From Pecten maximus (taxonomy: Eukaryota), in assembly GCF_902652985.1 (NCBI RefSeq), contig NC_047020.1:31992001-32056000 (forward strand): 64,000 nucleotides of DNA, written 5' to 3'. The notes under the pieces are model-generated. The model was not told the origin of the DNA and did not search any database. It saw only the letters and a list, made by a program, of their open reading frames with translations. The position numbers and the translations under genes were made by a program. Positions 2,573-22,376 of this stretch are shown here, piece by piece. How positions within the stretch are numbered: the first letter of the stretch is position 1; each line of letters starts with the position of its first letter.

Positions 2573-3349
2573 TTGAAATATTTTTAATTCTTACCATTAT
2601 TATATAGGTAATTAAGGATAAAAGAAAAAAAATAGAAGTCAAATGAAGGCAATGTGACATCAGATATATGTACAAATCATAGTTTGTCATCGTAACTCAT
2701 TATCTTCATGGCAAAAAGTCCTGTAATCGTATTTGAAAAACAGTACAAGATATGTTAACAAGCATGACACAATGATAATCATTCAATTTTCAAAACTATT
2801 TTGTAGATAGTTGTTGGAAGTCTATATATAATATTTAGATTAAAATGTACATTTTACATCTATATTTATAAATACATACAGAAGATTTTTGTTATGACAT
2901 TGCTGACAGGACTCTCTACTGTAAATGTTTTGTTTTAATTCTTAGCATAGAACTCGCTACTTTTTCTTATACAACTCCATTTAAGGGGTTGACAATAACA
3001 GTATTTTGGGTTGGTATATCACTCAGCTGCTGGCAGTTTAGCACAGTATGTGCTTTGAACATCAACGTGAAGTCACAAAGCTGCATTATAAGGTGGGGGT
3101 TTCCTGTATTGTTGGAATTGTAGAAAACTGAAACATAGCAAATCCATACTATAGAGATATTAGATATAAGAATTAGTGGCACATATGGAGAAAGCTAAGA
3201 AAATAGATCTAATGTGCACACATATGTCTGGAAATTTTAGCAGCATCCTAGCAGCCATGAGCTGTTGTGTAATACTGTCAGTGTCAACCCCTGTGATCAA
3301 AACCCCACCCCTCCCTTTACTGATTCACACATTCAAACAGAATAAAAGG

Positions 3350-4135
3350 AACAAGAGGCCCATGGGCTTTAACGGTCACCTGAGATTTGAAATATTTCAG
3401 TTAATTTAAATGACCCATTTTAGCCCCGCCCATCAGCCCCTGGGGGTCAGTCAGGGCCAACATGTGTATACCATCAAACTGCCATCACAAGCTGATAATG
3501 TTTACGAAGTTAGAATTAATTCCAATACTAATCAAACAAATTATAGTCAAAAAGGTGATTTCCCTTCAAAACTATAGTAAAGTTTACCCCCTCCCCAGGG
3601 GGTCAGTCAGGGCCAACATGTGCATACCATTATTTTGTCAACCCATGCTTATAATGTTAACTAAATTATATTGAATTCCATTACAAATCCAACAAATAAA
3701 AGTAAAAAATGTGATTTCCCTATATAAACTATAGTAAAGTTTACCCCCACTCCAGAGGCAAACATGAGACCCCTGGGTCATGAAATTCACAATTTTGGTA
3801 AAGCACCTTAAGACCCTTCCATCTACGAAGAGTGTTTGATTCCATCATACCTGAGAGTAGAGAAGAAGATTTTTGAAATTTCAGTCAATTTGACCCTTTT
3901 TAACCCTGCTCCTCAGGCCCCTGAGAGGTGAGGACCATATAATTCACAATTTTGGTTGACCTTTAGCCATAGAAGCTTCCTGCCAAATTCCTTGAATTTG
4001 GTTTAGGGGTTTTGGAGAAGAAGTCGAAAATGTAAATTGTTTACGGACGCATGACAGACGATGCACGGCGGCCGACGACGGACAAAAGGCGATTAGAATA
4101 GGTCACTTGAGACTTTGTCTCAGGTGACCTAAAAA
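3350..4135 (-). mobile_element. Complete non-autonomous Helentron-associated element (HINE)
   Basis: Minus strand: T-run, subTIR+IR hairpin AGGTCACCTGAG-ACAAAGT-CTCAAGTGACCT (4100-4130), GTC/GTCC microsatellite, two ~156-bp core repeats, 3' subTIR CTCAGGTGACC, palindrome GCCCATGGGC, CTCTTGTT end. Confidence 0.85.
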
Positions 4136-4239
4136 CAAAAAGCAATTAAAAAGAAAAGTGGAGGGCCGGAAGAACTGCATTCCCCCCAAAAAATATTTTT
4201 GTTCATTCCGGTTTCGTCTTGGATGCTACAAAGTGATGT

Positions 4240-7200
4240 CTAAAAAGCAGAATAAACAAGTTTGTGATCTGACCAGCAACATTCTACAGTGCTTGATATA
4301 CAATTTTGTTCATTCGTAAAAATTAGGTCAAGTTTAGAACCAAAGTCAGTTGTGACACATGATACAACCTGTCTGCAATTGAATTCTGACTCCATCCAGT
4401 GTAGAAATGTTTCGTTTTCTGAGGTATCAACATTAAAATCTCCTAAAATGACAAAAGGTTCATCGGTGTTTATCACAGGTTTTATATGGTGTCGAATTTG
4501 TGCTTTTAGATTTAAATACGAGCATTTTGGTGATTTGTAAATAATGGCAACTTGAATTTTCTTGTTTTCCTTGCTGACATTGGCAATCATGCACTCAAAA
4601 TCAAATGAAGTGAAGATATATTTTTTTGCAAATTGAATGTTTTTGCCAAAATAAATTGCTTGTCCATGATGTGGAGTCTGAGTGTTTTGTTGGTCATTTC
4701 TCTCAATACAAAAACCTTCAAGCTTCAAACTGTCACTTGAATTACTCGTTTTCAGTTTTGTTTCTGCAAAAGCCAACACATCAGCTGCTATAATATTGAA
4801 ATCATGTCTGATATCTTTGATATGTAATGGTAAAGACCTTACATTGAGGAAAGCTACTTTGAGTTTGTTAGAGGAGAGAGTGTAAGGTGGTATGTAGCAC
4901 AACTGTAATGGAGCCTCCGTGTACATCCGCAGCATTTCATCTGTAACTGCAGTGTCAACTGAAATTTTTTGTTCATTGAGATTTATAATGTGCAAGTCAG
5001 ACAGATTTCTTACACGACTCATTGCTACATAGTGCATATGTGGCTGTTTTCTAGTGGAAGTCATGTCCACTACAACTTTGTTTAAAGTGCATCCTTGTGA
5101 TTTATGTATGGTTTTAGCTGCTGCTGGTCTGAGTGGAAACTGTATCCTGATGAAGGATTTTCTGTTGTACAAAAATGTGCGCTGTGTATCAAATATGGGA
5201 GTCCAGGTAGGCAAAATGTGGTGTGAACGTAAATGTTTATATGTTGACCTAGCTTCATTTCCAGTTGTATCATCCTCAAACTGTACCCATACAATGCTGG
5301 GTCTGTCTGTGTTTGATTGCTTGTATTCTATGTATTTTACATGACAGCATGCACCATTGACAAGCCCATCTTCAATGTTTAAATTGACAGTGATTTCATA
5401 CGCCATACCAACAGCAATGGGAGCAACATTGAGTAATCCTCCTGTCTTGCTGATTTCATTTGGAAGTGCTCTTACAAGCCTCTCTTTTACATTTGTAGGA
5501 ATGTCGCCAACAGCTGTATCAAGTGATGGTATTCTGACTTTGGTGTTTTCTGTTTGTTCAAATATATTATCATTGAAATTGTCTACTTGTTTGTTTGTTG
5601 TGAACAGATGTGGGGCCTCTTTTGGATAATTTATGTCAGTTGGTTTGACAACTCGTGACATCAAAGTGGAAAGATCTGATTCAGATAGCCTGCCATTTAC
5701 CATACAACGCATTCTGTTCAGAAGTTCAGCAAAGTCTCTGTCATCTTTCTGACGCATGATTTCATTCAGTTCGTGTACTGTAAATAATGCTTTCCATATG
5801 TTTGTTGCAAGTGGACCCAATTGTTCTTGTAGATTTTGAAATATCCAGTGGTCCATCACAGGTTTCAACTGATAAAGGTCACCAATAAGAATGACACTAA
5901 CTCCTCCAAACAACTGTTTTTGATTACCTTTGATTCTCTGCAAACATTCATTAATCAGTGAAAACATTTTGTTTCCAACCATGGAAACTTCATCTATGAT
6001 GACAATAGACAAATCTCTGTATTTAACCCTGAGTGAATTCAGTGTGTCTGAATCAACATGGTAGCTCTGATAACCACGGTTTGGAAGGATTTTAAATGCA
6101 GTGTGTATTGTTGTACCATTGATGTTATGAGCAGCTTTTCCTGTTGGTGCACATAAGAGAACTTTGCAGTTTTCTGGATTGTCGCCTTCTCTAGCACAAA
6201 GATGTCTTTTCAATGCTTGGTACAATGTTTTGATAACAACAGATTTTCCTACACCAGCACCACCTGTTAAGAATGCATACAATGGACAATCTTTTGTTTT
6301 GATCCAGTGCAACACATGCAAGAAAAATTCCTTTTGTTTTATATTTAGTTTGCGTACGAGTTCCAGGTACTCTGTGTTTGGCAATATGTTAGGTGTATAG
6401 TCTATATTTGGGAATGTTTGTGATACACCGATATCAATTCCAATATCATAATCTTTGTGAGAGGCACTCTGTGGTTTGTAGTACACAAATTGTTCACTAT
6501 CTCGTGAGCCAGCTTGATCATCTTCCTCCTCAATATGCTGTGTCAATGGTGCAATTTGGTCAAATTCTTCACCCATGTCATCTGTTGCTGTTTGTAGGGC
6601 AATATCAAGTTCATCTGCATGATGTTCATATTCAATAAGTTTGGTGTCAACAATGTGTCTAACATGCTCATAATGTTCTTGGAATGTACTAAATCCCCCT
6701 AGTAAGTCAGTATCCTCTTTTCTCCATGGCAGGAATAATAGAAGTTTTTCTCTGTAGTGGTTTTCTGGGTCAGTCTTTGCATTGTATCGCACATAGCGAA
6801 TTATTTTTATATTTTTTCTACGTTTAAACACAATCCCATTTGGCATGGTGAATGTTGTCCAGTTTTCTGAAATAGTTACGGTTTCATCCTCACTGTCAGA
6901 ATCAGACATAATTATGTCATCATCATTGTTTTCCTCTTTTTGGTCTTTTTTCTTTGGATATGTTATGTCAAGTTCCGAGACATAATCTGCCAAACACATT
7001 GTTTGAAGCTGTTTTGGTCGTTTTGAATAACGTTTCACAACATTATCTGATTCAATGTCAGTAGATTGTGGTGGAAGTTCTTCCAATATATCTTTTTGCT
7101 TGAGAAGAAATGTCCTTTCACTTGCCTCTGATGTGTTGATAAAAACAACATCTCTAGATGATTTGGTGAGTGGAAGTTGGAGTGTAAGATATGCTGCTTC

Positions 7201-10200
7201 TTGTGCACAAACTTCAACACTGTTTAAAAATTTGTTGCCCATATGTCTTACTTGACGCTTGATATCCATATTTCCTTTTCGTGCTTCTTTACAAGCTTCA
7301 TCAAGGAGTATACTCATTCCTCTTTGGGATTTGCTGATATAAGCCACAATGTACACAGCACATGCATAAGGATCAAGTACAAATTGTAGATCATGATTAG
7401 CGTTCCATGCCTGTAGTAAGGATGTCATGTACGGATTGATTCGTACCTCAGACGGCTTTCGTTTAAGAAAGACCTTTGGGGACTTTAGAGATGATCTAAT
7501 ACACAAGATGTACTCTTCTTCTGACATGTTGGCCACATTTTCAAGAAAGCTGTTAAACGTCAAATGCTCTGCATCTTTCATATCTGTAATTTTCTTCTGT
7601 AGTTCTTGGTATTTCTTTTTTAGATTTTCATGATCCTCATCTAAAGGCTCCAATACCATAGTTTTGGACATTGGCGGCAATGGAAAGCCAAATCTACATA
7701 CAGGTTTTCCTTTCTTTCTGCATGTTTTTGAGTGTTTGTGTGTTTGTATATCGATATGCGAGGAGAGATGATCTTGTACATTTGCATTGCAAGAAGTATG
7801 TTTGTCAACAAATTCTGATATTGCTTGTGCAGAGTCCTGTTTGTATTTAGGAGCATTTTGTACCCACATCAACATGTGTATATGGGGCGAGCCTCTGTGT
7901 TGAAATTCTACTCGATAAAAATAATCTGTCAAAATGCCAAGTGGAGCATGGTCAGACTTGAGTACAGTAGTAATGAAGTGTTGAACTCTGTGATCAAAGT
8001 ATCTTGCACATGTTATAGGGTCTTTTTGTACCAAGCTTGTTTTGTCGTTCCATGTCATGTTGATTATTTGGTCTTCAGTGTAACAAAGTTTGTCGTTCAA
8101 CTCACCAAGTATTCTCAACAGATCATGCCATCGGGTATCACCGGCAGATAACGAACCAAACCAAGTTGGTAGTCCCAGTTGTCTTATCATAGCAAACACA
8201 TCTTTTTTCCTTTTTTCTAAGTAAGGCGGAGAGTTTCTTAGAGTCCTGAATATGTAATAACCTTCATCAAGATTAACTAATTTGTTCATATGTGAAGAAT
8301 TTAAGGCATCTGCAGCAGTTATATTTTTCCCTTTGCTTTTGCATCTTCTGATAGCCAAATATACTTTGTCAGATATTTGTTTCATTTGGATTTTCTTCAT
8401 TTTAAAGAAAATATTTGGAACCGAGTTTGCAGCTCTTCGGTCTACATGACGGAGTTCCCACTTTACAATGTCACTATAGTGGACCTTCACTTCTCTTTGT
8501 GAATTTTCAACTCTACTTTTACCACAGAAAATGGCAGGAAAAGATAACTCCTCTGCATTTTTGTCAGAATATAAACTCAAAGGATGTTGACCTTCTCCAG
8601 GTGCAAATGTGTATGTTGAATCACATTGAGGACAAATAGGTTCTATCAATGTATCTGAATTGCCAATTACTCTTTCTGTTTGATCAATTTCACTGAATGT
8701 GTCAGATTCATTTCCTCCATCATCTGATTGATCAGCACTTTCACTTGAAGGATTTGCCATGAAAGAATGAATAGATTCATCAGCTGAGGTGTTCAGTTTC
8801 GAAATCCATTCTTCATCAATTTCAATGCCAGATGATTTATATAGATCACTGTTATTGAATAACCAGTGGAGAGCCTGAAGTACTTTGTAAGGGCGTACGT
8901 TTTCTGTGAACTCACACTTATTGTAAGCCAACTTTCGTTTTATCCTAACTGGTATGGTTGTTTCATCAAACTGGCGGGGTAGTGCTTTGATTGTTGGTTG
9001 TATGTCTACTGGAACATTCACAACATTGCCATGAATACTCAATTGACCACCTCGAGGGAGTTCTCTCATCTGCATGAAAGGTATGCGTAAAGCAACCAAT
9101 CTCTCTTCAAGTTGATGTAAATCCAGTTCAAATGGTAAGGGAGGAAATGACAATTTATTTGCAGTTGACAAAGTTGGCAGTTTTTTATTTTTCAAACTTA
9201 ATGAACATGTTCTACATATCCATTCTTTTCTATCTTTGGATTTGAAACCTGTGCTACATCTTTGAAAAAGGGGGGAGAGTTCAATGTTTGAAGGCAGCTC
9301 TGTAACTGAATGTCTAAACCATGTTTGGTGACAACAGGTGCATACATATGTTGGACCATCAGCAATAGCTTTGTGGAATTTATCAATAGTAATGTCCAAG
9401 GTAGACCCACACTTAAATTGTTTTTCCTTTAAGGACATGGCTGGGTCTTTTCTGATTTTTCTTTTTGATTGTTTGCCTTTTAGTCTTTCTTGTACAATAC
9501 TTGACAAAATTTGTCGTGATGACTGTTTTGCCACCCTTTCTTTTTCTACATAATATTTTGAAAGTCTAGCTTTCTTTTTACTCTGAAGTTCTCTTGCTCT
9601 TTCTTCCTGTCTAAAGTGTTCATTTGTTCTTGCTTTCCTTTTGTGTGTTATTTCTCTATCTTTTTCTATTTTTCTGTATTCATCATTAAGTCTTGTTTTT
9701 CTTTTACTTTCTGCTTCTCTGAGCTTTTCTTTGCCTCTGTACTCATTATCAAGCCTGGCTCTTTTTTTGCTTTCCATTTCTTTAAGCTTTTCTTTGCCTC
9801 TGTTCTCGTCATCAAGTCTAGCTCTTTTTTTGTTTTCTATTTCTCTGAGTTTTTCTTTGGATCTATACTCATCATCAAGTCTGGCTCTTTTTTTGTTTTC
9901 TATTTCTCTGAGTTTTTCTTTGTCTCTGTAATCATCATCAGATCTAGCTTTAGTTTTGCTTTGTTTCTCCCATTTTTTTTCTTTGTCTCTGTACTCATCA
10001 TCAAGTCTAGCTCTTTTTTTGTTTTCTATTTCTCTAAGCTTTTCTTTAGATCTGTACTCATCATCAGATCTTACTTTAGTTTTTCTTTGTTTATCCCGTA
10101 TTTTTTCTTTAGTTCTGTACTCATCAGCAAGTCTGGCTTTCTTTTTTATGTGCATTTCCAAAGTTCTTTCTTTACTTCTGAACATATCATCAGATCTAGC

Positions 10201-13200
10201 TTTTGCTTTATTTTGTACTTCTTTCAGTCTGAAATTCTTATTCAGTCGTTGTATTCTTTTGTAATTCCGATTATAAATTTTTCTTTGTTCCCTTTCTTGA
10301 TTCTGAAAAATTTCACGATTATGTAAAGATTTTGCTTCACTGATTTTTTTAACTTTTTTTTCATTAAGTTCTTTTTGAACCTTGAAATACACTTCAAGTT
10401 TATCAAATATTTCATTGTTTTGTTTCTGGTGGACACAGGGAGGTGGATGTGGAGCAGTAACATTCTGTTCAGGTTCTAATGTAACACAACGCAGTTTATC
10501 AGAACAATGTTGTGCAGAAAGAGGCAAATATAGCTTTTGTTTTGTGCCCAGGCCTTGGCTTTGGGAAGCTTGGAGCTCATTGGGTAAAATTGATATATGT
10601 CTTTCTTCTGTATTCTCATCACTTCTCGAGAGGTGTTCTTCTTTAACTGTTACAGCAGTAACTTCAAATGGATCATGTACAGAATAGTTCATTGACACTC
10701 CCAAATTAAGACAATGTTCATACACCTGCTGAATAGTTGAGAAAGTCAAAAGAACACTTTTCCCATTTGGTACTTGCAAACCAGAGACACTTCTAGAATG
10801 GGAATCGAAAACAAAATACTTATTTGCTCCTTTTATGACAATAAATGTATTTCCCTTAAAAGTGATGAAAGCACCATTACTCTCCTGTTGATCTAGAGCC
10901 AAATTCAATGCTTCATATAATGTGAATGATAGGAAAATATCCAAGTCTTGACCTGTGTTTCCCATTGTTCCCTGAAGTGATTCTTGAAATTCAAATTTGT
11001 AAATTTTGTCATAACATTCCAGCTGCCTTGGTATTTCTTGTATAGATACATACTCATTATGCATAGTAGAACTGCGACATAACAATCCATACATTTCATC
11101 ACCTTTTATTAATGTATGATCAAGATCTGAGGATGTCCATGATGTCATACATTTTTCTCTACTCAATACAAGAGCAGACAAACTATTAAGGACACACTGC
11201 TTTCCAGAATTTTCTAAAAACCTATCATGGCCCTGGTGAAAATGTCCTTGAACCACTGTTTTAACACAGGTTTGACTAAGATATTGTACTTCTTTTTCAA
11301 TAGGTTGGATGACTGAATCATTTGCCATTGGAACACATTTGGGTGGTTTTATTTCCTTTTTTTTACTTTCTGTGTCAATAACGGATTGAGTGTGGATATT
11401 ACAGACACCAGTATCTCTTTGTATACAACTACCTGCGAATGCTTCAACATTGTGTGGATCATTTGCTACATTTAAAACAGGTTCATAGTGTGCTTGATAC
11501 TGATGTACTAGGTATATGGCTTCTTGTTCTACTTCATTGTTCCTGTCTACTTGTTTTGCAGAGAATTTCATCCAGGACAGCATATTTTCCTCATATATGT
11601 AAATATCTGTATGTAGTAAATCAGCAGAGGAAAGAATTTCAACTTCTGTAGCCCAGGTACCATTTTCAAGCATACGCCTTTTTTTGACCCAGTCATGAAC
11701 AGACTTGTAACCTGATCGCAAGTGGCTGATGTATTGCTTTTCCTTTTCTAACATATGACGTACAGTAGCTTGTCGTAATTGACCATAGTGCAATTCGTTA
11801 CCAAATATACTGTAGGATAAAGCTCTAAAAAAACAGTTGCCATCCCCCTGTATTTCCTTTGTCTGTACTGGTTTACCCAACTGTTTAACATCACAACAGG
11901 TAGACACAGAGGTTGATTCAGCTGTTACACCAAACATATTTGCTAGTTTCTGTTTTGTGGCTGTTGATAATGGACTATAAGTGAATTTATCTGGCATAGT
12001 TTGTTTTTCAAAGATGACATCTTCACCAGAGTTTTTTTTACTACTAGATATGTCATCTTTTTTCTGGTTGCTGTTTGTTTGAGTGAGAACTCTTTGGAGT
12101 AAATCCTTTTCAATATTTGGTTCAGACAACATTTCTATTCTTTTTTGTATCAGCTGTTTCATATTCAGAGAAATCAAAACTGGCTGGTTTTCATTGTCAA
12201 CAGTAGTATTTTTCTTGTCATGTGATGTGGTTTTGTTCGTTCCGTTTGTGTATTGTTGTTTGTTGAATTTACGCTGGATTATTCTCCTATATCTTTTAGC
12301 TTTCGATGTCTTTACTACATGATTTGTTAAATCAGGAGGTGACTCGTTCAATGTGCTACAATCATTCTTTGTTGAAATTGAAGGGTCAGTTTTGTTTGTT
12401 TTCTTTGTAATATCAGTAGTATTGTTTTCGTTTTTTCTTTTATAGCCTGAAGAGCTTTTGCATACTTTTTTGGTACTTCTCTCTTTGATTTGTTTGGAGC
12501 TTTTCATTTCAGTATCTGTGCATGTTTTGATTTTGAGATTTTTTGTTTTAATCCTTTTTCCATTTGATGGTTTTTGACAAGAGTATCTTAATTTTGATAC
12601 AGGCATTTTTTTCCTTGGCCTTTTGTCTATGGCATTCATATGCGACAGTTTCTGTTCCTTTGTTGGAGGTTTTCTCCTGTCATATTTTGCTGTGATAAGC
12701 ATGATGTTATAAAGTTTTCTTTCGTCTTTTTTCACATGCTTTCTTTCATTCACATTCTTTTTATCACATAAAACTGCTTTATCATGTGCAATTCTTTCAA
12801 CTGTGGTTTTGTGTGGTTTGTTTGATTTTCCAAACAAATCAGACATTGGTTCACTAGATTCTTCGTGCTTTGATTTATATCTTGTTTCCATCATGATTTC
12901 TGATCTTCTTCCATGCATTGTCTCAATGTCCATTTCGTAAGATTCAACTTTTGGATCATTATTTATTTCAGAGCTTTGTTCAGTTTCTTGTTTTGTCTCA
13001 AGCATATCTTCAGGGTTTGATTCAAGCATACTAAGGCAGTTAATTTCACAGTTTATTTTATTGAAGCTTGTTTGATAAGAATTCATTTCACCAAAGTTTG
13101 TTTCAATGACTGTTTTAATTATGGAGTCAGATTTTGTTTCACAGTTTGTTTCATAGTTTATTTCAGGCTTTGTTTGACAGTTTGTTTGATAGTTTGCTTG

Positions 13201-13854
13201 ACAGTTTGTTTGACAGTTTGCTTGACAGTTTGCTTGACAGTTTGTTTGACAGTTTGCTTGACAGTTTGCTTGACAGTTTGCTTGACAGTTTGTTTGACAG
13301 TTTGCTTGACAGTTTGTTTGACAGTTTGCTTGACAGTTTGTTTGACAGTTTGTTTGACAGTTTGCTTGACAGTTTGTTTGACAGTTTGCTTGACAGTTTG
13401 TTTGATAGTTTGCTTGACAGTTTGTTTGACAGTTTGCTTGATAGTTTGCTTGATAGTTTGCTTGACAGTTTGTTTGATAGTTTGCTTGACAGTTTGTTTC
13501 ATAGTTTGTTTCATAGTTTGCACAGTTTGTTTCATGGTTTTTTTCAGGCTTTGTTTCACAGTTTGTTTCAGAGTTTTCATAGTTTGTTTCAATGATTTTT
13601 TCAGATTTTCTTACTGTTTTAAGGAGGGCAGTATCCTCACAGTCTCTGATACTGTTTTTACCGAGGCCAGTATCCTCAGTCACGTCACTCGTCAGGTCTC
13701 TGATACTGTTTTTACCGAGGCCAGTATCCTCAGTCAAGTCAATGTCTCTGATACTGTTTTTAACGAGGCCAGTATCCTCAGTCACGTCAGTCCGTAAAAC
13801 TGCCACCTGGGACTTCTTCACCAACGACTTCTTCCAGAATCTTCTGCGAGGCAT
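4240..13854 (-). CDS. Helentron/Helitron2 Rep-helicase-endonuclease polyprotein (~3204 aa from MPRRRF)
   Basis: Uninterrupted ORF. OTU (GDGNCFFRAL...HYEPV, ~11870-11470); tegument-like DUB (GHFHQG..GKQC..FDSH, ~11260-10660); charged ~21-aa repeats; CxxC/CxxC and LEERLVALRIPF region; HUH Rep (VEFQHRGSPHIHML, YIVAYISK); PIF1 helicase (GGAGVGKS, IIDEVSM, GDLYQL, TIHKSQG, YVAMSRV); APE endonuclease (NVRSL, AETKL, GDFN, SDH). The ATG at 13854 has GCCATG context just after a splice acceptor. Confidence 0.95.
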   Translation of the reverse strand: MPRRRFWKKSLVKKSQVAVLRTDVTEDTGLVKNSIRDIDLTEDTGLGKNSIRDLTSDVTEDTGLGKNSIRDCEDTALLKTVRKSEKIIETNYENSETNCETKPEKNHETNCANYETNYETNCQANYQTNCQANYQANYQANCQTNCQANYQTNCQANCQTNCQANCQTNCQTNCQANCQTNCQANCQTNCQANCQANCQANCQTNCQANCQANCQTNCQANYQTNCQTKPEINYETNCETKSDSIIKTVIETNFGEMNSYQTSFNKINCEINCLSMLESNPEDMLETKQETEQSSEINNDPKVESYEMDIETMHGRRSEIMMETRYKSKHEESSEPMSDLFGKSNKPHKTTVERIAHDKAVLCDKKNVNERKHVKKDERKLYNIMLITAKYDRRKPPTKEQKLSHMNAIDKRPRKKMPVSKLRYSCQKPSNGKRIKTKNLKIKTCTDTEMKSSKQIKERSTKKVCKSSSGYKRKNENNTTDITKKTNKTDPSISTKNDCSTLNESPPDLTNHVVKTSKAKRYRRIIQRKFNKQQYTNGTNKTTSHDKKNTTVDNENQPVLISLNMKQLIQKRIEMLSEPNIEKDLLQRVLTQTNSNQKKDDISSSKKNSGEDVIFEKQTMPDKFTYSPLSTATKQKLANMFGVTAESTSVSTCCDVKQLGKPVQTKEIQGDGNCFFRALSYSIFGNELHYGQLRQATVRHMLEKEKQYISHLRSGYKSVHDWVKKRRMLENGTWATEVEILSSADLLHTDIYIYEENMLSWMKFSAKQVDRNNEVEQEAIYLVHQYQAHYEPVLNVANDPHNVEAFAGSCIQRDTGVCNIHTQSVIDTESKKKEIKPPKCVPMANDSVIQPIEKEVQYLSQTCVKTVVQGHFHQGHDRFLENSGKQCVLNSLSALVLSREKCMTSWTSSDLDHTLIKGDEMYGLLCRSSTMHNEYVSIQEIPRQLECYDKIYKFEFQESLQGTMGNTGQDLDIFLSFTLYEALNLALDQQESNGAFITFKGNTFIVIKGANKYFVFDSHSRSVSGLQVPNGKSVLLTFSTIQQVYEHCLNLGVSMNYSVHDPFEVTAVTVKEEHLSRSDENTEERHISILPNELQASQSQGLGTKQKLYLPLSAQHCSDKLRCVTLEPEQNVTAPHPPPCVHQKQNNEIFDKLEVYFKVQKELNEKKVKKISEAKSLHNREIFQNQEREQRKIYNRNYKRIQRLNKNFRLKEVQNKAKARSDDMFRSKERTLEMHIKKKARLADEYRTKEKIRDKQRKTKVRSDDEYRSKEKLREIENKKRARLDDEYRDKEKKWEKQSKTKARSDDDYRDKEKLREIENKKRARLDDEYRSKEKLREIENKKRARLDDENRGKEKLKEMESKKRARLDNEYRGKEKLREAESKRKTRLNDEYRKIEKDREITHKRKARTNEHFRQEERARELQSKKKARLSKYYVEKERVAKQSSRQILSSIVQERLKGKQSKRKIRKDPAMSLKEKQFKCGSTLDITIDKFHKAIADGPTYVCTCCHQTWFRHSVTELPSNIELSPLFQRCSTGFKSKDRKEWICRTCSLSLKNKKLPTLSTANKLSFPPLPFELDLHQLEERLVALRIPFMQMRELPRGGQLSIHGNVVNVPVDIQPTIKALPRQFDETTIPVRIKRKLAYNKCEFTENVRPYKVLQALHWLFNNSDLYKSSGIEIDEEWISKLNTSADESIHSFMANPSSESADQSDDGGNESDTFSEIDQTERVIGNSDTLIEPICPQCDSTYTFAPGEGQHPLSLYSDKNAEELSFPAIFCGKSRVENSQREVKVHYSDIVKWELRHVDRRAANSVPNIFFKMKKIQMKQISDKVYLAIRRCKSKGKNITAADALNSSHMNKLVNLDEGYYIFRTLRNSPPYLEKRKKDVFAMIRQLGLPTWFGSLSAGDTRWHDLLRILGELNDKLCYTEDQIINMTWNDKTSLVQKDPITCARYFDHRVQHFITTVLKSDHAPLGILTDYFYRVEFQHRGSPHIHMLMWVQNAPKYKQDSAQAISEFVDKHTSCNANVQDHLSSHIDIQTHKHSKTCRKKGKPVCRFGFPLPPMSKTMVLEPLDEDHENLKKKYQELQKKITDMKDAEHLTFNSFLENVANMSEEEYILCIRSSLKSPKVFLKRKPSEVRINPYMTSLLQAWNANHDLQFVLDPYACAVYIVAYISKSQRGMSILLDEACKEARKGNMDIKRQVRHMGNKFLNSVEVCAQEAAYLTLQLPLTKSSRDVVFINTSEASERTFLLKQKDILEELPPQSTDIESDNVVKRYSKRPKQLQTMCLADYVSELDITYPKKKDQKEENNDDDIIMSDSDSEDETVTISENWTTFTMPNGIVFKRRKNIKIIRYVRYNAKTDPENHYREKLLLFLPWRKEDTDLLGGFSTFQEHYEHVRHIVDTKLIEYEHHADELDIALQTATDDMGEEFDQIAPLTQHIEEEDDQAGSRDSEQFVYYKPQSASHKDYDIGIDIGVSQTFPNIDYTPNILPNTEYLELVRKLNIKQKEFFLHVLHWIKTKDCPLYAFLTGGAGVGKSVVIKTLYQALKRHLCAREGDNPENCKVLLCAPTGKAAHNINGTTIHTAFKILPNRGYQSYHVDSDTLNSLRVKYRDLSIVIIDEVSMVGNKMFSLINECLQRIKGNQKQLFGGVSVILIGDLYQLKPVMDHWIFQNLQEQLGPLATNIWKALFTVHELNEIMRQKDDRDFAELLNRMRCMVNGRLSESDLSTLMSRVVKPTDINYPKEAPHLFTTNKQVDNFNDNIFEQTENTKVRIPSLDTAVGDIPTNVKERLVRALPNEISKTGGLLNVAPIAVGMAYEITVNLNIEDGLVNGACCHVKYIEYKQSNTDRPSIVWVQFEDDTTGNEARSTYKHLRSHHILPTWTPIFDTQRTFLYNRKSFIRIQFPLRPAAAKTIHKSQGCTLNKVVVDMTSTRKQPHMHYVAMSRVRNLSDLHIINLNEQKISVDTAVTDEMLRMYTEAPLQLCYIPPYTLSSNKLKVAFLNVRSLPLHIKDIRHDFNIIAADVLAFAETKLKTSNSSDSLKLEGFCIERNDQQNTQTPHHGQAIYFGKNIQFAKKYIFTSFDFECMIANVSKENKKIQVAIIYKSPKCSYLNLKAQIRHHIKPVINTDEPFVILGDFNVDTSENETFLHWMESEFNCRQVVSCVTTDFGSKLDLIFTNEQNCISSTVECCWSDHKLVYSAF
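9550..10330 (-). repeat. In-frame ~63-bp repeats encoding charged helical units (KARLDDEYRxKEKLRExExKK)
   Basis: About 10 imperfect 21-aa units in the ORF translation. Confidence 0.85.
13134..13595 (-). repeat. In-frame 12-bp minisatellite encoding (NCQT/NCQA/NYQT)n
   Basis: ACAGTTTGYTTG repeats. The overlapping repetitive ORFs in other frames are by-products. Confidence 0.95.
13620..13790 (-). repeat. In-frame repeat encoding TEDTGLGKNSIRD (~4 copies)
   Basis: GGCCAGTATCCTCAGTCA / TCTCTGATACTGTTTTT repeated. Confidence 0.85.
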
Positions 13855-13861
13855 GGCTAAT

Positions 13862-13880
13862 CTGAAATAACAGCAAACAA
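13862..13880 (-). promoter_or_regulatory. Splice acceptor immediately upstream of the Helentron start codon
   Basis: Minus strand TTGTTTGCTGTTATTTCAG|ATTAGCCATG. Confidence 0.65.
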
Positions 13881-14639
13881 TATCTTGATTGATCATAGAC
13901 AACAAGATTAATTGATAACTGATTTGATTTCATCCTTACTTCTTATGTGTGAATCATAGCATTTTATCTCTCTTGGACATGTATTAAATAAATGTTAACA
14001 TGGTTAGTCCAGAACTAAAACACTGGCAGGTCCGCAAGAACCTAACCATGTGGCTGTATATATTAGGTTAGAGATCTGGACTGTTAAAAAACAACTAAGA
14101 CTATCCTCTGGAGGCCAACTCATACCCCCTCACTCCACTACCAATGAGTTTATTTATGGAATAATTGTAATTGTAATACAGGGTCAAGGTCAATTTAGAT
14201 TTCCGATACGAGAAGGTAAATTCTACCTCTTATAGATCAAGCACATTTATAATGTATAAGAATTATCTCTAGTAATAAAGTTTAGTTAAAATCTCGTTGC
14301 ATTTGTATGATGATGACTAATAGTAATGGGAAACCATTACAAAAGTCCCCCAAACACCTTCCATATTCCCGAAGATGCAAATGTGGTCTCTCTGGCAACA
14401 AAACAGATACAGTTGAATTTGCACCAATCAGAAGCCAGTAAATGACGGCCATTTTCTTACAATGTGAAACTGAGGTTGTAAATATATACCAAATTTCATC
14501 AAAATTGGTGCCATTTAGGCCGACAGCCATTTTGTTGAAAATTTCAACTTTTTTTTTTATACAAAATTAAAGTTCATCATGTTTTCAACCTTCCAACAAA
14601 GTTGAATTGAATTTCATTGAATAGTAAAAGAGTTATGAT

Positions 14640-15480
14640 AAACTAGAACTGTCGCCAGGATAGCCGACTAATACCTCTACAATCTGCTGCAGTCAATGGA
14701 CAACTGTTATTTGGAGGCTAACTAAGATAATCTGTGCATGCCACTATTTCTGAAATTCAGAATGGCTAGAATATGTGTTGTTCATAATAAAGAGAATTTA
14801 GTCATAAGTTTTGTTGAAATCAGTCCATAGGTTTAGGAAGAGTTGTCTGGAACCTGTTAATAATGACTAGTTACCATGGCAACAAAAACTTTGGAATTTA
14901 AACAGATGCATGCACATATGCACATGTTCTCTAACATTTTGACCGATTGAATGGAAACCTGATATAAATACATTATGCACATCTACAGATTACGCATATC
15001 TACAATGTATAAGGATTATTGCCAGCAAGTTTTGTTGAAATTCCCTCAGTAGTTTATGAGTATAACCAATACAATTTTTGACAGAATATGCAGCCAATAC
15101 CCTTCAACACTTGATTTCTATCTAAAGTGTGACCTTAACTTTTAACCTTCAAATCTGAAAACCAATCCCAATAAAGCACTTACAATAAGGAAGCACTTAT
15201 ATCAAGTTTGAGGTAGATTGTTTTGAAGTACAAATTGATTGGAAAAAGCAAACTAAAGTTACTGTATAGAAACTTGATTTCCTATCTTTAGCAACATTTA
15301 CCTTGACCTTTGACACACAGAAGCAATAAGAAAGCACTGTATGAAGTTTGAGTTTGATTGGCCCAAAGAAATTAAAATTATTGAAGGGAAATAAAAGTTG
15401 ATGGACAGACAGAAGGATCGTTATATCTACAGACAGAAAGACAAACAGACAACCTGATCCAGTACCCCTAACTTATTCAA
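14640..15480 (-). mobile_element. Degenerate HINE/pearl-like non-autonomous element(s)
   Basis: AACTAGAACTGTCGCC end, TGACCTT motifs, duplicated internal block, (ACAG)n microsatellite near 15405-15450. Confidence 0.5.
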
Positions 15481-15840
15481 ACAAAAATATACATTATACA
15501 TGTACTTTGATATTTATCTTGATTTCATGTTGCTTATGTCACACGTGCACAAATGTACCCAAATAAGAAATTCATTTATCAAAAATAGGAAACTAGCAGC
15601 TTTTCTGTCAAACCAGGACTACTATTGTATCTTTCATCCCCCAAAACCTTTTCATATTATTTTCAGCTTAACTGGACAATATGTCAATATTAACCAATCA
15701 GAAGCATTTATAACATTTTCTATAGTAATTGTTCTGAAAATAATGTATTTCATAAATAAAAAGCATAATTATAGAAGTTACATCATTTGACAAACTTTGA
15801 ATGAAATTTATCCAAGAACTGTGTAAAGAGACCAGCTAGT

Positions 15841-17155
15841 TACTGTATAGCGTGAAATTTTAGCAGTCATAAAATTTTGCGATTTGGTCCTGAAAACTAA
15901 AAGCAAAAAATTTTGGCGGGTTAAAATTTTGTAATTTCCCTTAAATCAATGGTTTTAATTTGGCGTTGAGCAAATATATTACCTACCGGTATATATATAT
16001 AATGTTATGTCCATACACCCTATCCATGTTGATCAACAGTGTTAACATAAGTTCATTAAATGGTATTGGTAGATATATATAGATGGCTTTCTTTACGTAC
16101 ATGTATCATAAGTAAGTTGTTCACCAGCTATTCGTATGTACCTGCATTTTGGCTGACAGTTTCCAGGCAACAACCAACGTTAAGCATCGGCGTTACTCTT
16201 GGGAGTTATCAAAGGTAAATGGCAGTCGGAACGAAAACTATTGGCAAAATTGAAATTTTCGCGTCTTTTTAATTGGAGGTGTTAAAATTTTACAGTTTAA
16301 ATTTTGGCAATCTATAAAGGGGTCGACATTAACTTTTTTCTGCACTTGTCCCTTTGGACAAGTAACATTTATATCCACTTGTCCGAATGGAATTATCACT
16401 TGTCCCACTTAAGTTAAATGATGTTTTTCAATGACTGTGTATCATGCAGTAAAATGATAACATTGCAATGACAACTATATTACTGATATTTATTGGTGTT
16501 TTGTCCAAGTTACATAATGAAGAGAAAAAAAATGCTACTGACAGCCTATTTTCGATTTACAGAAACTAAACTAGTCTAATAAGAATAGAAATCAACTGAA
16601 TAAAACATGAATATAATTGTAGAAATGCAATAGTGCATAAATATCTGAAATACTATATTTGCTAAATCTTGCAATAAATAGCGAGCCTGCATCTGTTGCT
16701 ACTTTAGTCCTTCAAATACACTTGCAATTTCCTTGTACACTTTTATTCATATTCCTTCTTTTTCCAATATGCATATTCAATTCAAAGACACCAATTCGGC
16801 CGATTGAATATTTTTGAAAAACACAGAAAGTTTAGTTATCATCTGCATTAGTGTTCTGAATTAAACTATTTTCGTTAATATGAAAAAGTCACTTCCAATG
16901 TACACTATCCATGTTTTCCTTTCTTTTTAATCATAGGTATAAGGTGAAGTCTTGTGAATGTTGATTTCAGAATATAAATAAACAACATGAAGACAATATT
17001 TGTTACTTGTCCCGTCGGACAAGTGTTTTGATACTTTCACTTTTCCGACAGCAATTTAGTCTGGTACCGGACAAGCGGACATGCAAGCCTTAATGTCGAC
17101 CCCTGCTATATACTCTCCAAATTAAAGCCCCGCTAAAATTTCCTACTATACAGTA
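15841..17155. mobile_element. Tc1/mariner-type MITE interrupted by a nested element
   Basis: TIRs TACTGTATAG....AAATTTTAGC / GCTAAAATTT....CTATACAGTA, including the TA target dinucleotides. Confidence 0.75.
16318..17105. mobile_element. Nested hAT-like MITE
   Basis: TIRs AGGGGTCGACATTAA / TTAATGTCGACCCCTG, with repeated subterminal ACTTGTCC/GGACAAG motifs at both ends. The TSD is only partly visible (CTATA). Confidence 0.75.
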
Positions 17156-17599
17156 TCATGTTGGCCAAAATTTCTGTGGAAAATAACTCTGAATGCGCAT
17201 CTTCTATGACATTCCTGTTTGGTTTTCTTCATATTGGTTTGAAATAGTTTGGTAGTCACTCTGGTGAAAATTGATGCAACTTAATAACTTTCAGGGAAAC
17301 AACATCATGAGTAATGTGTTCAAAATGGGAGGTGTAAGCAGTAAAAAGATGTAAAGATGGGTACAATTCATGACATTGACAAAATGAGTTAAATTCTCAG
17401 AATTTGTTTGGATTGGAGTGTGTTTTCCATCAACACTTTCTATCTTGAAAATGATGTAAGAGGATTTTTTACAAATCGTTCTTTTTATATACATTTTATA
17501 CCTGTCTAAACTTTAATGCAGACCTCCAATTGTTCTTTCTCAAAGTAGAGATTTTCTGTAATAATTAATATTTTAACCAAGCACAGTGCTTGTATCAAC

Positions 17600-18430
17600 A
17601 TAACGAGATCTCAAAGGGATCTTGCCACCCATCATTGAATGATCTTTATAGTTTTCATGTCAAACTGATCTTCTCTATATTTTTCCTCTCATTTATTTTA
17701 TAACATGAACACATGGAACCCACGTGTGAAGTCCAAGAAAAATCCTTCCAGTACTTTTAAAGAAATATTGTAACATATTTCAATTCTCAAAATCCAAGAC
17801 GGCTACCTGTTGGGAACTGCCAGATGAAGTTTGAGAAATATCCCTCATTTGTACAGAAATAGCAATAACAAACTTCAATTGTCAAATCCAAGATGGCGTC
17901 CTATTGGTCATGTTGTTTTCCTATTTGTCCCAAAATGCAATATGTACCACTAGGGACCAAGAGGAACCTACATATGAAATTTGAGAAAGATCCCTTTAGT
18001 ACTTTCTTAGAAATAGCGATAACAATTTTTTATTGTCCAAATCCAAGATGGCTGCCTGTCAGCCATGTTGTTTTCCGACTGATGCCGAAATGCAATATGT
18101 ATAACTAAGGACCAAGGGCAACAAACATATGAAATTTCAGAAAGATCCCTTCTGTACTTTCTGAGAAATAGTGATAACAAACTTCAACTGTCAAAATACA
18201 AGATGAGTGCAGATCATCAATGTTGTTTTCTGATCAATCTCAAAATGCAATGTGCACCACTAAAGACCAAGGGGAACCTACATATGAAATTTGAGCAAGA
18301 TCCCTTCAGTATACTTTTTAAGAAATAGTGATAACAAGAATTGATTACAGACAGACGGACAACTAATTAACGTGTAGTGTAATACTACTACACAGAGGAG
18401 GATGTCCCACAATATATGGGGGCTTAACTT
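17600..18430 (-). mobile_element. HINE/pearl-like element with ~155-bp core repeats
   Basis: 3-4 units containing CCAAGATGGC and GAAATTTGAGAAAGATCCCTT, followed by an ACAGACAGACGGAC microsatellite. Confidence 0.6.
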
Positions 18431-19279
18431 CATTCTAGCCGTGTTAGCTTACCAGGTAGATTTATAATAAAAAATCTTTAAGGAAATAATTTTCAATAGA
18501 CAAACATTTTTATTTTTATCTAACAATCATATTATTTCCCAAGAAAAATCACACTATAATTCATGTATGGGAAGAAATTTCCTTGAAGGAAATGTCATAA
18601 AAAGTCATAAAGGTTGACAATTAAGACTTGGTATCATTGCAGAGCTGATAACTTTGGATCATTTACTGATATTGCATGTCTATGAGTTTATCTTTTATAG
18701 CATCTAATCAAGGTATTCTATTGGTGGCATGGTCTAAACACTAGTCTCAACACTAGTATAAGGCAGGGCGATTTGAACAGCCCACCATGTGATGATGGTG
18801 GGCTAAAAAAGTGCTAGTATCAATATCAAAAGAATGAACACAAATTATTTGGTTTACAAAGTGTCAATGTTATTATACATGAATGATTAGCATTTCTGCT
18901 GTTTATGTATCAAAATAAAGTACCATACATTAACTGATAACACTACTTTGTGCTGAACTGCATCAAAATCATACAATATGTCAAATCTGTATAAACAGAC
19001 CACTCATGGGGAAATCTTAATTGAACTAGACTGTTCTTTTTGTTCTATTCACTTAAGATATACCTGAAGCAATGCAAAATATGCAATATGTAAAAAAAAA
19101 AACAATCTCCAGTTGACAAGTTGTTCAGGACATTGCAAAAGCTAGATTTAATGTATTTTTGTAATCATTAATTTTGTGAGACTTTCTAAATAACACAGCA
19201 TATCAAATAATTATCAAATTTACCTAACAAATTATTTCATTATTTTTTATGTTTTCATGCAATATATTTTAATTCCTTT

Positions 19280-20080
19280 CGTTGCTGAATCCTGGTCCGG
19301 ACACCGTCCCGATTATTCGTCACATTGCTGTATTTCCTACTTCATAATGCGACTTTTTCAACAGATATTGAATATCTGTCATACATGTTTCAAAAACTAT
19401 ATAAATCATGATTTTAAAGCAGAATGACTGTTGATGTATTCCTTTCTTGACGTCTCAGCAAAAATACGCGTTATATCAGTCAAATCATTGACCGATCTCA
19501 AGTAGACTACAGTTGATATGAAGGCCTTCATCGTATAAAATCTACGAAACTCTTGCTTAGGTTTACGACAACGCTCCGCTCTGAAAGAGTTAATATATCT
19601 GTTGGATTGTATTAAAAACTAAATAACACTTCGAACAATAGACGACAACTTGAATAATTACTAGTATAGACGTATTCGATGCACAAAGCTCTTATCTGGA
19701 ACGCGACAGACGGAAGTGCCTAACCTAGTTTACGGTCCAAATATATTAGTTTACGGTCCAAATATATAAGCCTATGTCAAATTGGCACTGACTGGTCTCA
19801 TTCTTAAAATATAAAAACATTAACAGTGTTTACATTATCAATCAAACCACCCTTCAACTCTTTTAAAGCGGGCAGTAGCACTAGCTTTGCAATATATCCA
19901 ATTGTTCTCAGCAAAATATACGACGCCGCCATCTTACCTATAAAGGAGATATGAAATAACACGTGACATCAGAGTTATCAAAACGTTTGAAATTTCCCGT
20001 CGATTTCAAGCGCAAAAGGGACAAATGTAGACTTGCCCAAGTTCCAGTGGGGAATGAAATGTTCCACTCGGCTTACACGT
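19280..20080 (-). promoter_or_regulatory. Candidate CpG-rich promoter island
   Basis: Visibly more CpG than the flanks. YY1-type AAGATGGCGGC (minus, ~19926-19936), CACGTG (~19960), CCAAT (minus, ~19781-19785), ETS-type CGGAAGTG (~19711), tandem 21-bp duplication TAGTTTACGGTCCAAATATAT. Confidence 0.45.
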
Positions 20081-20859
20081 TAAATAATAAAATTACACAG
20101 AAACAAGATCATATAAATTTGCTATTTCATAATCTTAGCTTAGGTTATTTTTACCCTTTTTTTAAAATTTACTTTTGATGTCCTTATAATTATCAGCTAT
20201 AATTGCAATTTAGTTTCATAATAACATTTTTTTTTAATTTCTTTTTCTTAACAGCTCATGTATAGGCCTGTATGTTTTGCAAATGTTTAATCTAAAAGAC
20301 AGAATTTAACTATTCTTTAAACCAATGGAAAATAACACATGTTCAGGGATATATTTCAATGGGAATAAGATAAATTCTGAGAAAAACATCCAAAATCATT
20401 ATACATTTATTACCTATTCACTTATATCATTCAAGCAGCCTTATTCAGGACAAAGGACAAAAAATTTCAAAGTTACATATCTTATCAAAAGTTTCCAAGT
20501 TCATGTTCAATACTTGCAATCATAGTCAACAGTTATATATATAATTACTATAAATCAGTGCAAATATTGAACAATACACATATATTATCTTTGCATAACA
20601 TAATTTTTCATTTAATATCACACTGCTGATGGCTGATGAACCTTTAATTCATGTATTTCTCTTCTGCACATCACCAACATGGAAATCTTCTTCATCAGAA
20701 TAATTTGATAAATATCACTTAACAGCTTAACAGATTAGGTGAAAAGAATAAGGTGATTGCATGTGACAACAATGTTTAAACAAAGTTCCGAAAGCTATGC
20801 TGAAGAAAACATGTGAAAAATCTCCAACCTCTGCATATACCTCTTGACACAATTTCAAA

Positions 20860-22376
20860 TGATTTGAACCATGTGGTCTTCAATGTAAGTCAAGGTCATA
20901 CATCTGAACCAGCATACCATTGGCCTACTTAAAAATCATTTTTAAAGATTTAAACCTATTTGATCCTGTGACCTTTAATTAAGGTCAATGTCATTCATCT
21001 AAACAAATGTAGTAGCCCTTAACCCTAGCATGCTACAGGCCCAATATCAAGTCCCTCATTTGAACAAACTTGACATCCCTTCACCCCAGCATGCTACAAG
21101 CCCCAATATCAAGTCCCTGGGTCTCTTGGTTATTGAGAAGTCGTTAAAATTTTATAGTCTATTCTACCTTTGTGACCTTGAATAAAGGTCAAGGTCATTC
21201 ATTTGAACAAACTTTGTAGCGCTTCAGCCCAGCATGCTACATGCCAAATATCAAGTCCCTGGGCCCCTTGGTTATTGAGAAGAAGTTGTTTAAAGATTTT
21301 TGTCTGTTTGACCCATATGACCTTGAATGAAGGCCAAGGTCATTCATTTGAACAAACTTTGTAGCCCTTCACCCTAGCATCATACAGGCCCAATATCAAG
21401 TCCCTTGGCCTCTTGGTTATTTAGAAGTTGTTTGAAGATTATAGCTTATTTGACCCATATGACCTTGAATGAAGGTCAAGGTCATTTATTTGAACAAACT
21501 TTGTAGCCCTTCACCCCAGCATGCTACAGGCCCAATATCAAGTCCCTGGGCCTTTTGGTTATTGAGAAGAAGTTATTTAAAGATTTTTGTCTGTTTGACC
21601 CATATGACCTTGAATGAAGGTCAAGGTCATTTATTTGAACAAACTTAATAGCCCTTCACTCAAGCATGCTACAGGTCTAATATCAAGTCCCTGGGTCTCT
21701 TGGTTATTGAGAAGAAGTTGTTCGAAGATTATAGCTTATTTGACCCATGTGACCTTGAATGAAGGTCAAGGTCATTTATTTGAACAAACTTTGTAGCCCT
21801 TCACCCCAGCATGCTACAGGCCCAATATCAAGTCCCTGGGCCTTTTGGTTATTGAGAAGAAGTTGTTTGAAGATTATAGCCTATTTGACCCATGTGACCT
21901 TGAATGAAGGTCAAGGTCATTTCTTTGAACAAACTTTGTAGCCCTTCAGCCCAGCATGCTACAGGCCCAATATCAAGTCCCTGGGCCTCTTGGTTATTGA
22001 GAAGAAGTTGTTTGAAGATTATAGCCTATTTGACCCATGTGACCTTAAATGAAGGTCAATGTCATTTATTTGAACAAACTTTGTAGCCCTTCACCCCAGC
22101 ATGCTACAGGCCCAATATCAAGTCCCTGGGCCTCTTGGTTATTGAGAAGAAGTTGTTTGAAGATTATAGCCTATTTGACCCATGTGACCTTGAATGAAGG
22201 TCAAGGTCATTTATTTGAACAAACTTGGTAGCCCTTCAGCCCAGCATGCTACAGGCCAAATATCAAGTCCCTGGGCCCCTTGGTTATTGAGAAGAAGTTG
22301 TTTAAATGAAAAAGTTGACGCCGGACGCCGCACCATGGCATAAGCTCACTTGCCCTTCGGGCAGGTGAGCTAAAAA
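20860..22376 (-). mobile_element. HINE with ~10 tandem 145-bp core repeats; 3' end not recognisable
   Basis: Terminal hairpin AGCTCACTTGCCC-TTC-GGGCAGGTGAGCT (22343-22371) plus A-run. The 145-bp period includes TGACCTTGAATGAAGGTCAAGGTCA. Confidence 0.85.

What the first reader, a model, noticed from the sequence alone, without database searches (positions are those of the whole stretch)
4240..20080. Intact giant Helentron ORF organised like a host gene (spliced leader, own CpG promoter): possible domestication
Seen: 9.6 kb without a stop, with catalytic motifs of five enzyme domains apparently intact, and a clean splice acceptor 7 nt before a GCCATG start. The 6 kb upstream contains several decayed and nested insertions, followed by a CpG-rich stretch with YY1/ETS/CCAAT motifs. 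I could not find dedicated Helentron termini hugging the ORF. Inference: old insertions in the leader combined with a pristine ORF suggest purifying selection, either as a domesticated gene or as a very large element with an intron-containing 5' UTR.
Basis: partly seen in the sequence, partly recalled or inferred. Interest (0 to 1): 0.7.

Follow-up and report, generated by a model that had tools for sequence, protein, structure and literature searches.

The report
Giant mobile Helentron, not domesticated gene
The intact 9.6-kb gene is the core of a 22.5-kb rolling-circle transposon of a known group (Helentron) that sits in an intron of the translation-factor gene eIF5B, has two more intact full-length copies elsewhere in the genome and appears to be missing from this spot in other DNA samples, so it is very likely a recent jumping gene with a likely spliced leader, not a host gene.

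Summary
The 3204-aa ORF (OTU, herpes-tegument deubiquitinase, DUF6570, Rep, PIF1, AP endonuclease; motif residues intact) lies inside a ~22.5-kb element. Its ends are 8.5 kb upstream (22376) and 4.4 kb downstream (~181 bp outside the window). They are textbook Helentron ends (subTIRs, 3' palindrome, T-run site) and split an older repeat in intron 3 of eIF5B. Two more intact full-length copies (22.3, 23.3 kb) share these ends at unrelated loci, with deletion derivatives and 1280 exact copies of the 5' end. In 3 of 3 DNA runs a contig leaves the host flank at the boundary without entering the element (likely empty allele; continuation letters not shown). dN/dS is about 0.1 in the core on every branch, so selection is real but belongs to mobile lineages. 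The acceptor before the ATG recurs in diverged families; no spliced read was seen. The 5' end carries the 145-bp satellite of the genome's HINEs, making this a likely autonomous partner. This scan noted a similar giant Helentron in another genome (e1-7908760). New member of a known kind.

The parts
1..22376 (-). Whole autonomous Helentron, about 22.55 kb. It continues about 181 bp beyond the window's left edge; the 3' subTIR, palindrome and T-run lie at G000:C6:~31991817-31991852
   Evidence: Homology with copies A and B starts and stops at these points and the flanks are unrelated; the flanks are two halves of one older repeat
22343..22376 (-). 5' end: T5 run, subTIR and its internal inverted repeat (hairpin)
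   Evidence: fold -11.5 kcal/mol, z -5.4; 1280 exact matches of a 30-nt piece in the genome, control 0
21058..22303 (-). 145-bp satellite array (8.6 copies) directly behind the 5' end, part of the element
   Evidence: TRF; same position in copies A and B and derivative N1
19400..19960 (-). CpG-rich promoter-like patch with YY1-like and ETS-like words; an NRF1-like palindrome found in 4 of the 5 other copies in full (shortened by 1 nt in the fifth) is lost here. Function inferred
13862..19400 (-). Likely 5'-UTR intron (donor not located) holding nested non-autonomous elements; 90-91% identical to copies A and B over aligned columns
17600..18810 (-). Nested HINE-like element with 155-bp central repeats, shared with copies A and B; holds a 395-bp insert private to this copy (18758-18364)
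15841..17155 (.). Nested TIR element shared with copy B, holding two inserts private to this copy: a TIR element at 17104-16318 and a 227-bp piece at 16089-15863
13855..13880 (-). Splice-acceptor-like site, 7 nt before the ATG
   Evidence: kept in A, B and D; directly before the ATG in diverged elements E, F, G, H, J
4240..13854 (-). Single 3204-aa ORF: low-complexity N-terminus, OTU, VTD deubiquitinase, charged repeats, DUF6570, Rep, PIF1 helicase, AP endonuclease
11485..11850 (-). OTU domain (D671, C674, H789)
10792..11238 (-). Herpes_teg_N / VTD deubiquitinase domain (C887, D1017, H1019)
7339..8463 (-). Rep (HUH) domain with the Helentron signature (FYR before motif 2, S1989; H1991, H1993; Y2168, Y2172)
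5005..6351 (-). PIF1 helicase (Walker A K2537, Walker B D2621/E2622)
4264..4845 (-). AP-type endonuclease domain
3350..4133 (-). HINE-like element of another family nested in the 3' tail, present at least in part in copies A, B, C; not the end of the large element
1590..2573 (.). 65-bp tandem array in the 3' tail, shared with copies A, B, C
22800..22908 (-). Host eIF5B coding exon 3, spliced across the whole element to exon 4 (L026, near 9391)
   Evidence: RNA contig of run X4, depth 864, joins exon 2, exon 3 and exon 4; downstream exons match eIF5B
23395..23514 (-). Host eIF5B coding exon 2
27050..27096 (-). Likely first coding exon of host eIF5B
   Evidence: Read from the sequence: ATG, donor site and frame fit exon 2; not covered by a laid run
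23826..25663 (-). Separate non-autonomous HINE with the same 5' end and 145-bp array, a similar 3' subTIR and palindrome but a different stretch before them

Best explanation
This is one intact copy of a low-copy family of ~22-23-kb autonomous Helentrons (HLE2, endonuclease-bearing subgroup), inserted in a T-run in intron 3 of eIF5B, likely recent and polymorphic there, and its gene-like leader (promoter-like patch, likely intron, acceptor before the ATG) belongs to the mobile element. Shown: ends, copies, site, domains, dN/dS. Inferred from known Helitron biology: the leader is transcribed and spliced to the acceptor at 13861; the Rep domain nicks at the 5' end, the helicase peels off one strand up to the 3' palindrome, and the copy is pasted into a T-run without a target duplication. 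The two deubiquitinase domains would shield the protein from degradation (proposal of PMC9741609). The same protein would move the many satellite-carrying HINEs that share the 5' end. The intron tolerates insertions while the ORF does not, so lineages that keep transposing gather nested elements only in the leader and tail.
For: Full-length copies A (C17, 22.3 kb, 3178 aa) and B (C14, 23.3 kb, 3093 aa) are intact with the same ends and unrelated flanks; partial copy C shares the 3' end. The last ~40 nt match at 39/40, 40/40 and 39/40, against 87-93% in the next 60 nt (the window includes a few flank T letters). Three paralogues of the host repeat (L074, L078, L079; picked from 11 examined) run from the 5' flank straight into the 3' flank. 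In 3 of 3 DNA runs (3 studies) one contig matches the flank with 0 differences down to exactly 22372 and goes on for 975, 292 and 634 letters off the element, at depths 16.5, 45.4 and 28.1 against 17, 56.2 and 26.2 for nearby unique DNA. Changes private to this copy in aa 1551-3204: 49 synonymous, 22 non-synonymous, w 0.12; A 0.09, B 0.15 (Fisher p 2e-18, about 24 stops expected if neutral). Internal-deletion derivatives N1 and N2 keep the array and promoter patch and lack the ORF. AG precedes the ATG in 6 of 9 further loci examined (D, E, F, G, H, J); in the other 3 no N-terminus was found. E, F and G also begin with a HINE-type 5' end plus a 156-157-bp array 6.9-9.3 kb before the ATG.
Against: The letters of the three contigs beyond 22372 were not shown, so 'empty allele' is read from where the match stops; another rearrangement at the same base is not excluded, and one DNA run may be the assembly's own source. 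No splice joint into 13861 was among the 15 joints shown of 559; runs X1 and X2 (probably one data set) hold a contig that reads through the acceptor unspliced with 0 differences. No near-identical sister copy exists in this assembly (best 97%). This copy has lost the NRF1-like word that the others keep, so its own promoter may be weaker. The donor site and start site were not located. The neighbouring HINE differs from the element just inside its 3' end, so it is not a simple deletion derivative. Transposition was not observed.
Confidence: 0.9

Rival explanations
1. A domesticated Helentron gene: fixed at this locus, kept intact by host selection, with a host-type promoter and intron.
For: w 0.12 on this copy's own branch with no stop in 9.6 kb; four to five inserts private to its leader; no sister copy above 97%.
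Against: Element absent from a flank-spanning contig in 3 of 3 DNA runs; both ends intact; the same selection pattern and leader in copies A and B at other loci; broken and deleted relatives typical of a transposon family.
Confidence: 0.03
2. A mobile family that the host keeps as a whole: single insertions come and go, but individuals need at least one working copy, which would explain strong purifying selection on an enzyme that should act in trans.
For: w 0.09-0.15 on all three terminal branches at dS 0.06-0.085; the three best matches and the window copy show no break in the parts read (A and B whole, C its 3' part); run X4, shown to be RNA, holds 0.60 of the ORF's sampled words.
Against: No direct evidence of benefit. 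Turnover of active lineages gives the same pattern, and both readings were already offered for 9-10-kb Helitron ORFs in Paramecium (PMC13085455). ORF reads in X4 may be host pre-mRNA or come from another copy.
Confidence: 0.06
3. The element is mobile but the leader is not spliced: the true promoter lies close to the ORF and the 6 kb upstream is passenger DNA.
For: Unspliced read-through contig at 13830-14160 in X1/X2 and no joint seen; leaders of the diverged families do not align with this one.
Against: A T-rich tract plus YAG sits 0-7 nt before the ATG in families with 60-70% protein identity; the 400 bp upstream of the acceptor are CpG-poor (o/e 0.22); both deletion derivatives keep the distal CpG patch.
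Confidence: 0.2

Closest known systems
Helentrons and their HINE/DINE-1 partners (Thomas et al. 2014, PMC4067079; passages seen)
   Same: subTIRs, 5' inverted repeat, 3' palindrome, T-run site, Rep-helicase-endonuclease protein with the S-type motif 2, deletion derivatives, tandem repeats inside
   Different: Here the element is ~22.5 kb with 8.5 kb before the ATG, a likely 5'-UTR intron and a satellite array inside the autonomous copy; I saw no such layout in the passages read (supplements not opened)
HLE2 subgroup b of HELIANO (Li et al. 2024, PMC11417382; passages seen)
   Same: DUF6570, Herpes_teg_N, OTU and Exo_endo_phos with RepHel; T-T insertion; autonomous copies matched to long-known non-autonomous families in Xenopus
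   Different: No tree was built here; subgroup assignment rests on domain content
Zebrafish VTD Helitrons DrT1/DrT2 (Erven et al. 2022, PMC9741609; passages seen; PDB 8ADD)
   Same: VTD plus OTU in one Helentron ORF (as in DrT2); catalytic C, D, H kept; reported also from molluscs
   Different: Activity of this protein is untested
Cg_HINE satellite-carrying elements of Pacific oyster (PMC7492417, PMC7992393; passages seen)
   Same: 5' subTIR + inverted repeat + GTCC-type microsatellite (copies A, B), central satellite array, 3' subTIR + palindrome
   Different: The oyster papers could not link HINEs to an autonomous element; here intact autonomous copies carry the same 5' end and array. The organism here was not determined
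Paramecium Helitrons (PMC13085455; passages seen)
   Same: 9-10-kb ORFs under purifying selection (dN/dS 0.15) in elements that stayed active
   Different: A separate clade at chromosome ends; not HLE2

Membership tests
Helentron (HLE2 with endonuclease) | Rep (HUH) and PIF1 helicase in one ORF | tested here: met
Helentron (HLE2 with endonuclease) | C-terminal AP endonuclease | tested here: met
   Exo_endo_phos aa 3004-3197, above cut-off
Helentron (HLE2 with endonuclease) | Rep motif 2 with S between G and P, and F/Y-x-R before it | tested here: met
   F1979 Y1980 R1981, S1989 against the rule in PMC4067079
Helentron (HLE2 with endonuclease) | DUF6570 marker domain | tested here: met
   aa 1556-1684, E 1e-21; marker per PMC11417382
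Helentron (HLE2 with endonuclease) | subTIRs at both ends and a 3' palindrome | tested here: met
   5' hairpin z -5.4; the 3' stem-loop forms (6 bp) but is not better than shuffles on its own, z -1.0
Helentron (HLE2 with endonuclease) | Insertion in a TT/T-run without target duplication | tested here: met
   T5 and T4 runs at the ends; paralogous uninterrupted repeats; exact number of T letters owned by the element not fixed
Helentron (HLE2 with endonuclease) | Placement in the HLE2 clade of a RepHel tree | not tested
   No reference set at hand
Helentron (HLE2 with endonuclease) | Rolling-circle transposition activity | not testable with these tools
   Only dispersed copies and a likely empty allele
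Domesticated transposon gene | Fixed at one locus | tested here: not met
   Flank-spanning contigs without the element in 3 of 3 DNA runs (continuation letters not shown)
Domesticated transposon gene | Single copy with decayed or lost ends | tested here: not met
   Three intact full-length copies with intact ends
Domesticated transposon gene | Purifying selection on the ORF | tested here: met
   not specific, since it holds for all three copies
Domesticated transposon gene | Orthologue in synteny in related species | not testable with these tools
   The genome has no relatives in the genome search

The most novel reading that the evidence does not exclude
Satellite-headed giant Helentrons are a distinct design: 5' end plus satellite array, a CpG promoter, a multi-kb 5'-UTR intron that acts as a safe landing strip for other elements, then a ~3000-aa double-deubiquitinase RepHel-endonuclease. 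They are the active autonomous drivers and the source of the satellite-carrying HINEs whose partners were not found in oyster, at least two such families (145-bp and 156-157-bp arrays) run in parallel in this genome, and the strong selection on each copy's own branch reflects a preference of the enzyme for the copy that made it.
Probability: 0.35. Interest if true: 0.55.

Novelty: new member of a known kind. Interest (0 to 1): 0.3.

Why it matters
It removes a false candidate for transposon domestication and shows why such candidates arise: the ends of these elements lie many kb from the ORF, and purifying selection acts on mobile lineages. It also supplies natural, intact, probably recent autonomous Helentrons that share their 5' end and satellite with over a thousand short elements. 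That makes two points testable: whether autonomous Helentrons generate and spread satellite-carrying HINEs (left unresolved for oyster in PMC7492417), and what the endonuclease and deubiquitinase domains do in transposition. A 22.5-kb same-strand insertion with its own acceptor in an eIF5B intron could also disturb a core translation gene in carriers (inference).

Tried and rejected
No RNA holder was listed by the look-up of sequencing runs; this blank is no evidence. Laying X1, X2, X4, X8 on 13600-21050 at 85% likeness was swamped by repeats: 15 of 559 joints were shown, none a splice into 13861, and no first exon could be placed. The lack of cover at 19327-19824 in X1 and X4 is not used. A search for a second haplotype of the flank in the assembly found only 70-90% paralogues. 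The first 3'-tail alignment failed on a bad anchor and was redone. A donor-like AG|GTAAGA at 19939 is kept in the 6 copies, but it overlaps the YY1-like word, so I do not call it the donor. An in-frame fusion of host exon 3 (phase 0) to the acceptor was rejected by reading the sequence: the ATG lies 7 nt behind the acceptor, out of frame. The nested HINE at 4133-3350 was considered as the 3' end and rejected: copies A, B and C extend past it to the same distal end. A search of this genome's earlier notes gave nothing. No protein-database search, structure prediction or tree was run; they would not have changed the verdict.

Full report
Observation. The minus strand holds a stop-free frame at 4240-13929; the ATG at 13854 gives 3204 aa. 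Pfam finds OTU, DUF6570, Helitron_like_N, PIF1 and Exo_endo_phos. Residues 870-1090 alone match Herpes_teg_N and the zebrafish Helitron deubiquitinase structure 8ADD. The 21 motif residues I checked are present here and in copies A and B; the 18 outside OTU are also present in diverged elements G and H, where no OTU residues aligned. The acceptor-like site 7 nt before the ATG, the nested insertions and a modest CpG patch are all in the sequence.

Ends. A 1.2-kb piece of the ORF gave 40 matches in the genome, 3 of them at 97% over the full length besides the window. Homology with copies A (C17:18.55-18.58 Mb) and B (C14:6.88-6.91 Mb) runs from window 22377 to about -181. At the 5' end a T-run precedes a subTIR that folds with its inverted repeat (z -5.4), followed by a 145-bp array. 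At the 3' end the reverse subTIR is followed by a palindrome and a T-run. Flanks differ among all copies. Lengths are about 22.55, 22.3 and 23.3 kb. Copy C shares the 3' part, is split by about 10.6 kb of other DNA and stops at an assembly gap. The two host flanks are halves of one older repeat: in 3 paralogues that I picked from 11 examined, the 5'-flank match runs into the 3'-flank match within a few bases.

Host gene. Exons at 27096-27050, 23514-23395 and 22908-22800 lie upstream on the same strand and further exons lie downstream. One downstream exon matches eIF5B at E 2e-46 (Pfam IF-2). In run X4 a contig of depth 864 joins exon 2, exon 3 and the exon beyond the element, so the host splices the whole site out as intron 3.

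Empty site. In 3 of 3 DNA runs laid on 22355-23000 (X5, X8, X9; 3 studies) a contig matches the flank with 0 differences to exactly 22372 and continues for 975, 292 and 634 letters that do not fit the element, at roughly the depth of nearby unique DNA. The letters were not displayed, so the identity with the downstream flank is inferred. X8 also holds leader pieces identical to this copy at depths 11-33 against 45-56, which fits a heterozygote or a sister copy elsewhere; it may be the source of the assembly. Contigs show presence, not absence, so filled alleles are not excluded in any run.

Selection. Between copies dS is 0.06-0.085 and dN/dS 0.26-0.28 overall, 0.02-0.25 in the DUF6570, Rep, helicase and endonuclease parts, 0.3-0.4 in the deubiquitinases and 0.7 or more in the linkers. 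Changes private to each copy in aa 1551-3204 give 0.12, 0.09 and 0.15. About 24 stops would be expected at this copy's private divergence if it were neutral. Leaders are 90-94% alike with many large indels; the last 40 nt are 98-100% alike against 87-93% next to them. Selection on the ends points to transposition, not to a host function (inference). If every private non-synonymous change in the core arose after insertion, the copy has sat here for at most about 0.6% divergence (22 of 3928 sites; inference). Purifying selection on 9-10-kb ORFs of active Helitrons is in print for Paramecium (PMC13085455).

Leader. The promoter-like region occurs in 6 places at 79% or more. YY1-like and ETS-like words are kept; an NRF1-like palindrome is kept in the others and lost here; CCAAT is not well kept (names recalled). 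Some nested elements are shared by the copies and so travel with the element; five segments of 150-460 bp (about four inserts) are private to this copy. Of 9 further loci examined, 5 have YAG directly before the ATG (E, F, G, H, J; F and G are 98.9% alike in the leader and count as one) and D has it 7 nt before; in 3 no N-terminus was found. E, F and G start with a related 5' end and a 156-157-bp array 6.9-9.3 kb before the ATG, and F carries an extra 1.9-kb HINE in its leader relative to G. So the layout is a family trait. Direct proof of splicing is missing: no joint into 13861 among 15 shown of 559, and one unspliced contig across the acceptor in X1/X2, whose kind is not on record. X4 is RNA and holds 0.60 of the ORF's words, which suggests that some copy is transcribed, but host pre-mRNA could give this.

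Partners. A 30-nt piece of the 5' end has 1280 exact matches, control 0. N1 (C17:25.0 Mb) keeps the 5' end, array, promoter patch and part of the intron and jumps to the tail; N2 (C17:20.26 Mb) keeps the array and promoter patch and jumps to the last 1.2 kb with the 3' end. The HINE at 23826-25663 shares the 5' end and array but not the stretch before the 3' subTIR, so partnership by shared ends is likely and direct descent is not shown.

Known and new. Domains, ends and site fit Helentrons / HLE2 subgroup b (PMC4067079, PMC11417382, PMC9741609; passages only). Helitrons up to 39 kb are known in maize through gene capture (PMC6431247). The oyster papers found no autonomous partner for satellite HINEs. 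Five searches (listings and abstract starts only) showed no paper on a Helentron 5'-UTR intron; Repbase entries, subscription papers and supplements were not seen and may hold such elements.

Verdict. A real, intact, probably recent transposon of a known group; domestication about 3%. Interest 0.3, for the autonomous-partner link and the gene-like leader.

Noticed in passing
window 23826-25663; L026 ~6700-8806: The eIF5B gene holds two more elements with the same 5' end and 145-bp array, in the introns before exon 2 and after exon 4: three insertions of one family within about 30 kb.
   Followed up: partly
L086-L090, aligned at window ~20600: The five other copies carry about 600-750 bp that this copy lacks; read by eye on the opposite strand it looks like the 3' end of a CR1/L2-type LINE ORF. 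Not tested.
   Followed up: no
G000:C13:1.606-1.646 Mb (L045-L048) and C13:8.378-8.418 Mb (L041-L044): A second family with a 156-157-bp array at the 5' end: G has an intact 3106-aa ORF; F is 98.9% alike in the leader, has an extra nested HINE and a broken ORF.
   Followed up: partly
G000:C17:25.001-25.012 Mb (L091-L092): Derivative N1 jumps from the intron (window ~14851) to the nested HINE in the tail (~4118); the ORF may have been lost by recombination between two nested repeats.
   Followed up: partly
G000:C14:11.73-11.75 Mb and C3597: Several 90% copies of the element's last 180 bp lie close together, two of them 565 bp apart; possibly tandem rolling-circle products.
   Followed up: no
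window 20085-20424: Runs X1/X2 and X4 (RNA) hold contigs identical to this stretch, upstream of the CpG patch; a first exon, a divergent transcript or host pre-mRNA are all possible.
   Followed up: no
window 13133-13576, 13637-13789, 9649-10222: In-frame repeats (12, 48 and 63 bp) inside the ORF change in copy number between copies without breaking the frame.
   Followed up: partly
window 47472-48665 (+): A 397-aa stop-free frame outside tandem repeats, probably an exon of another gene.
   Followed up: no
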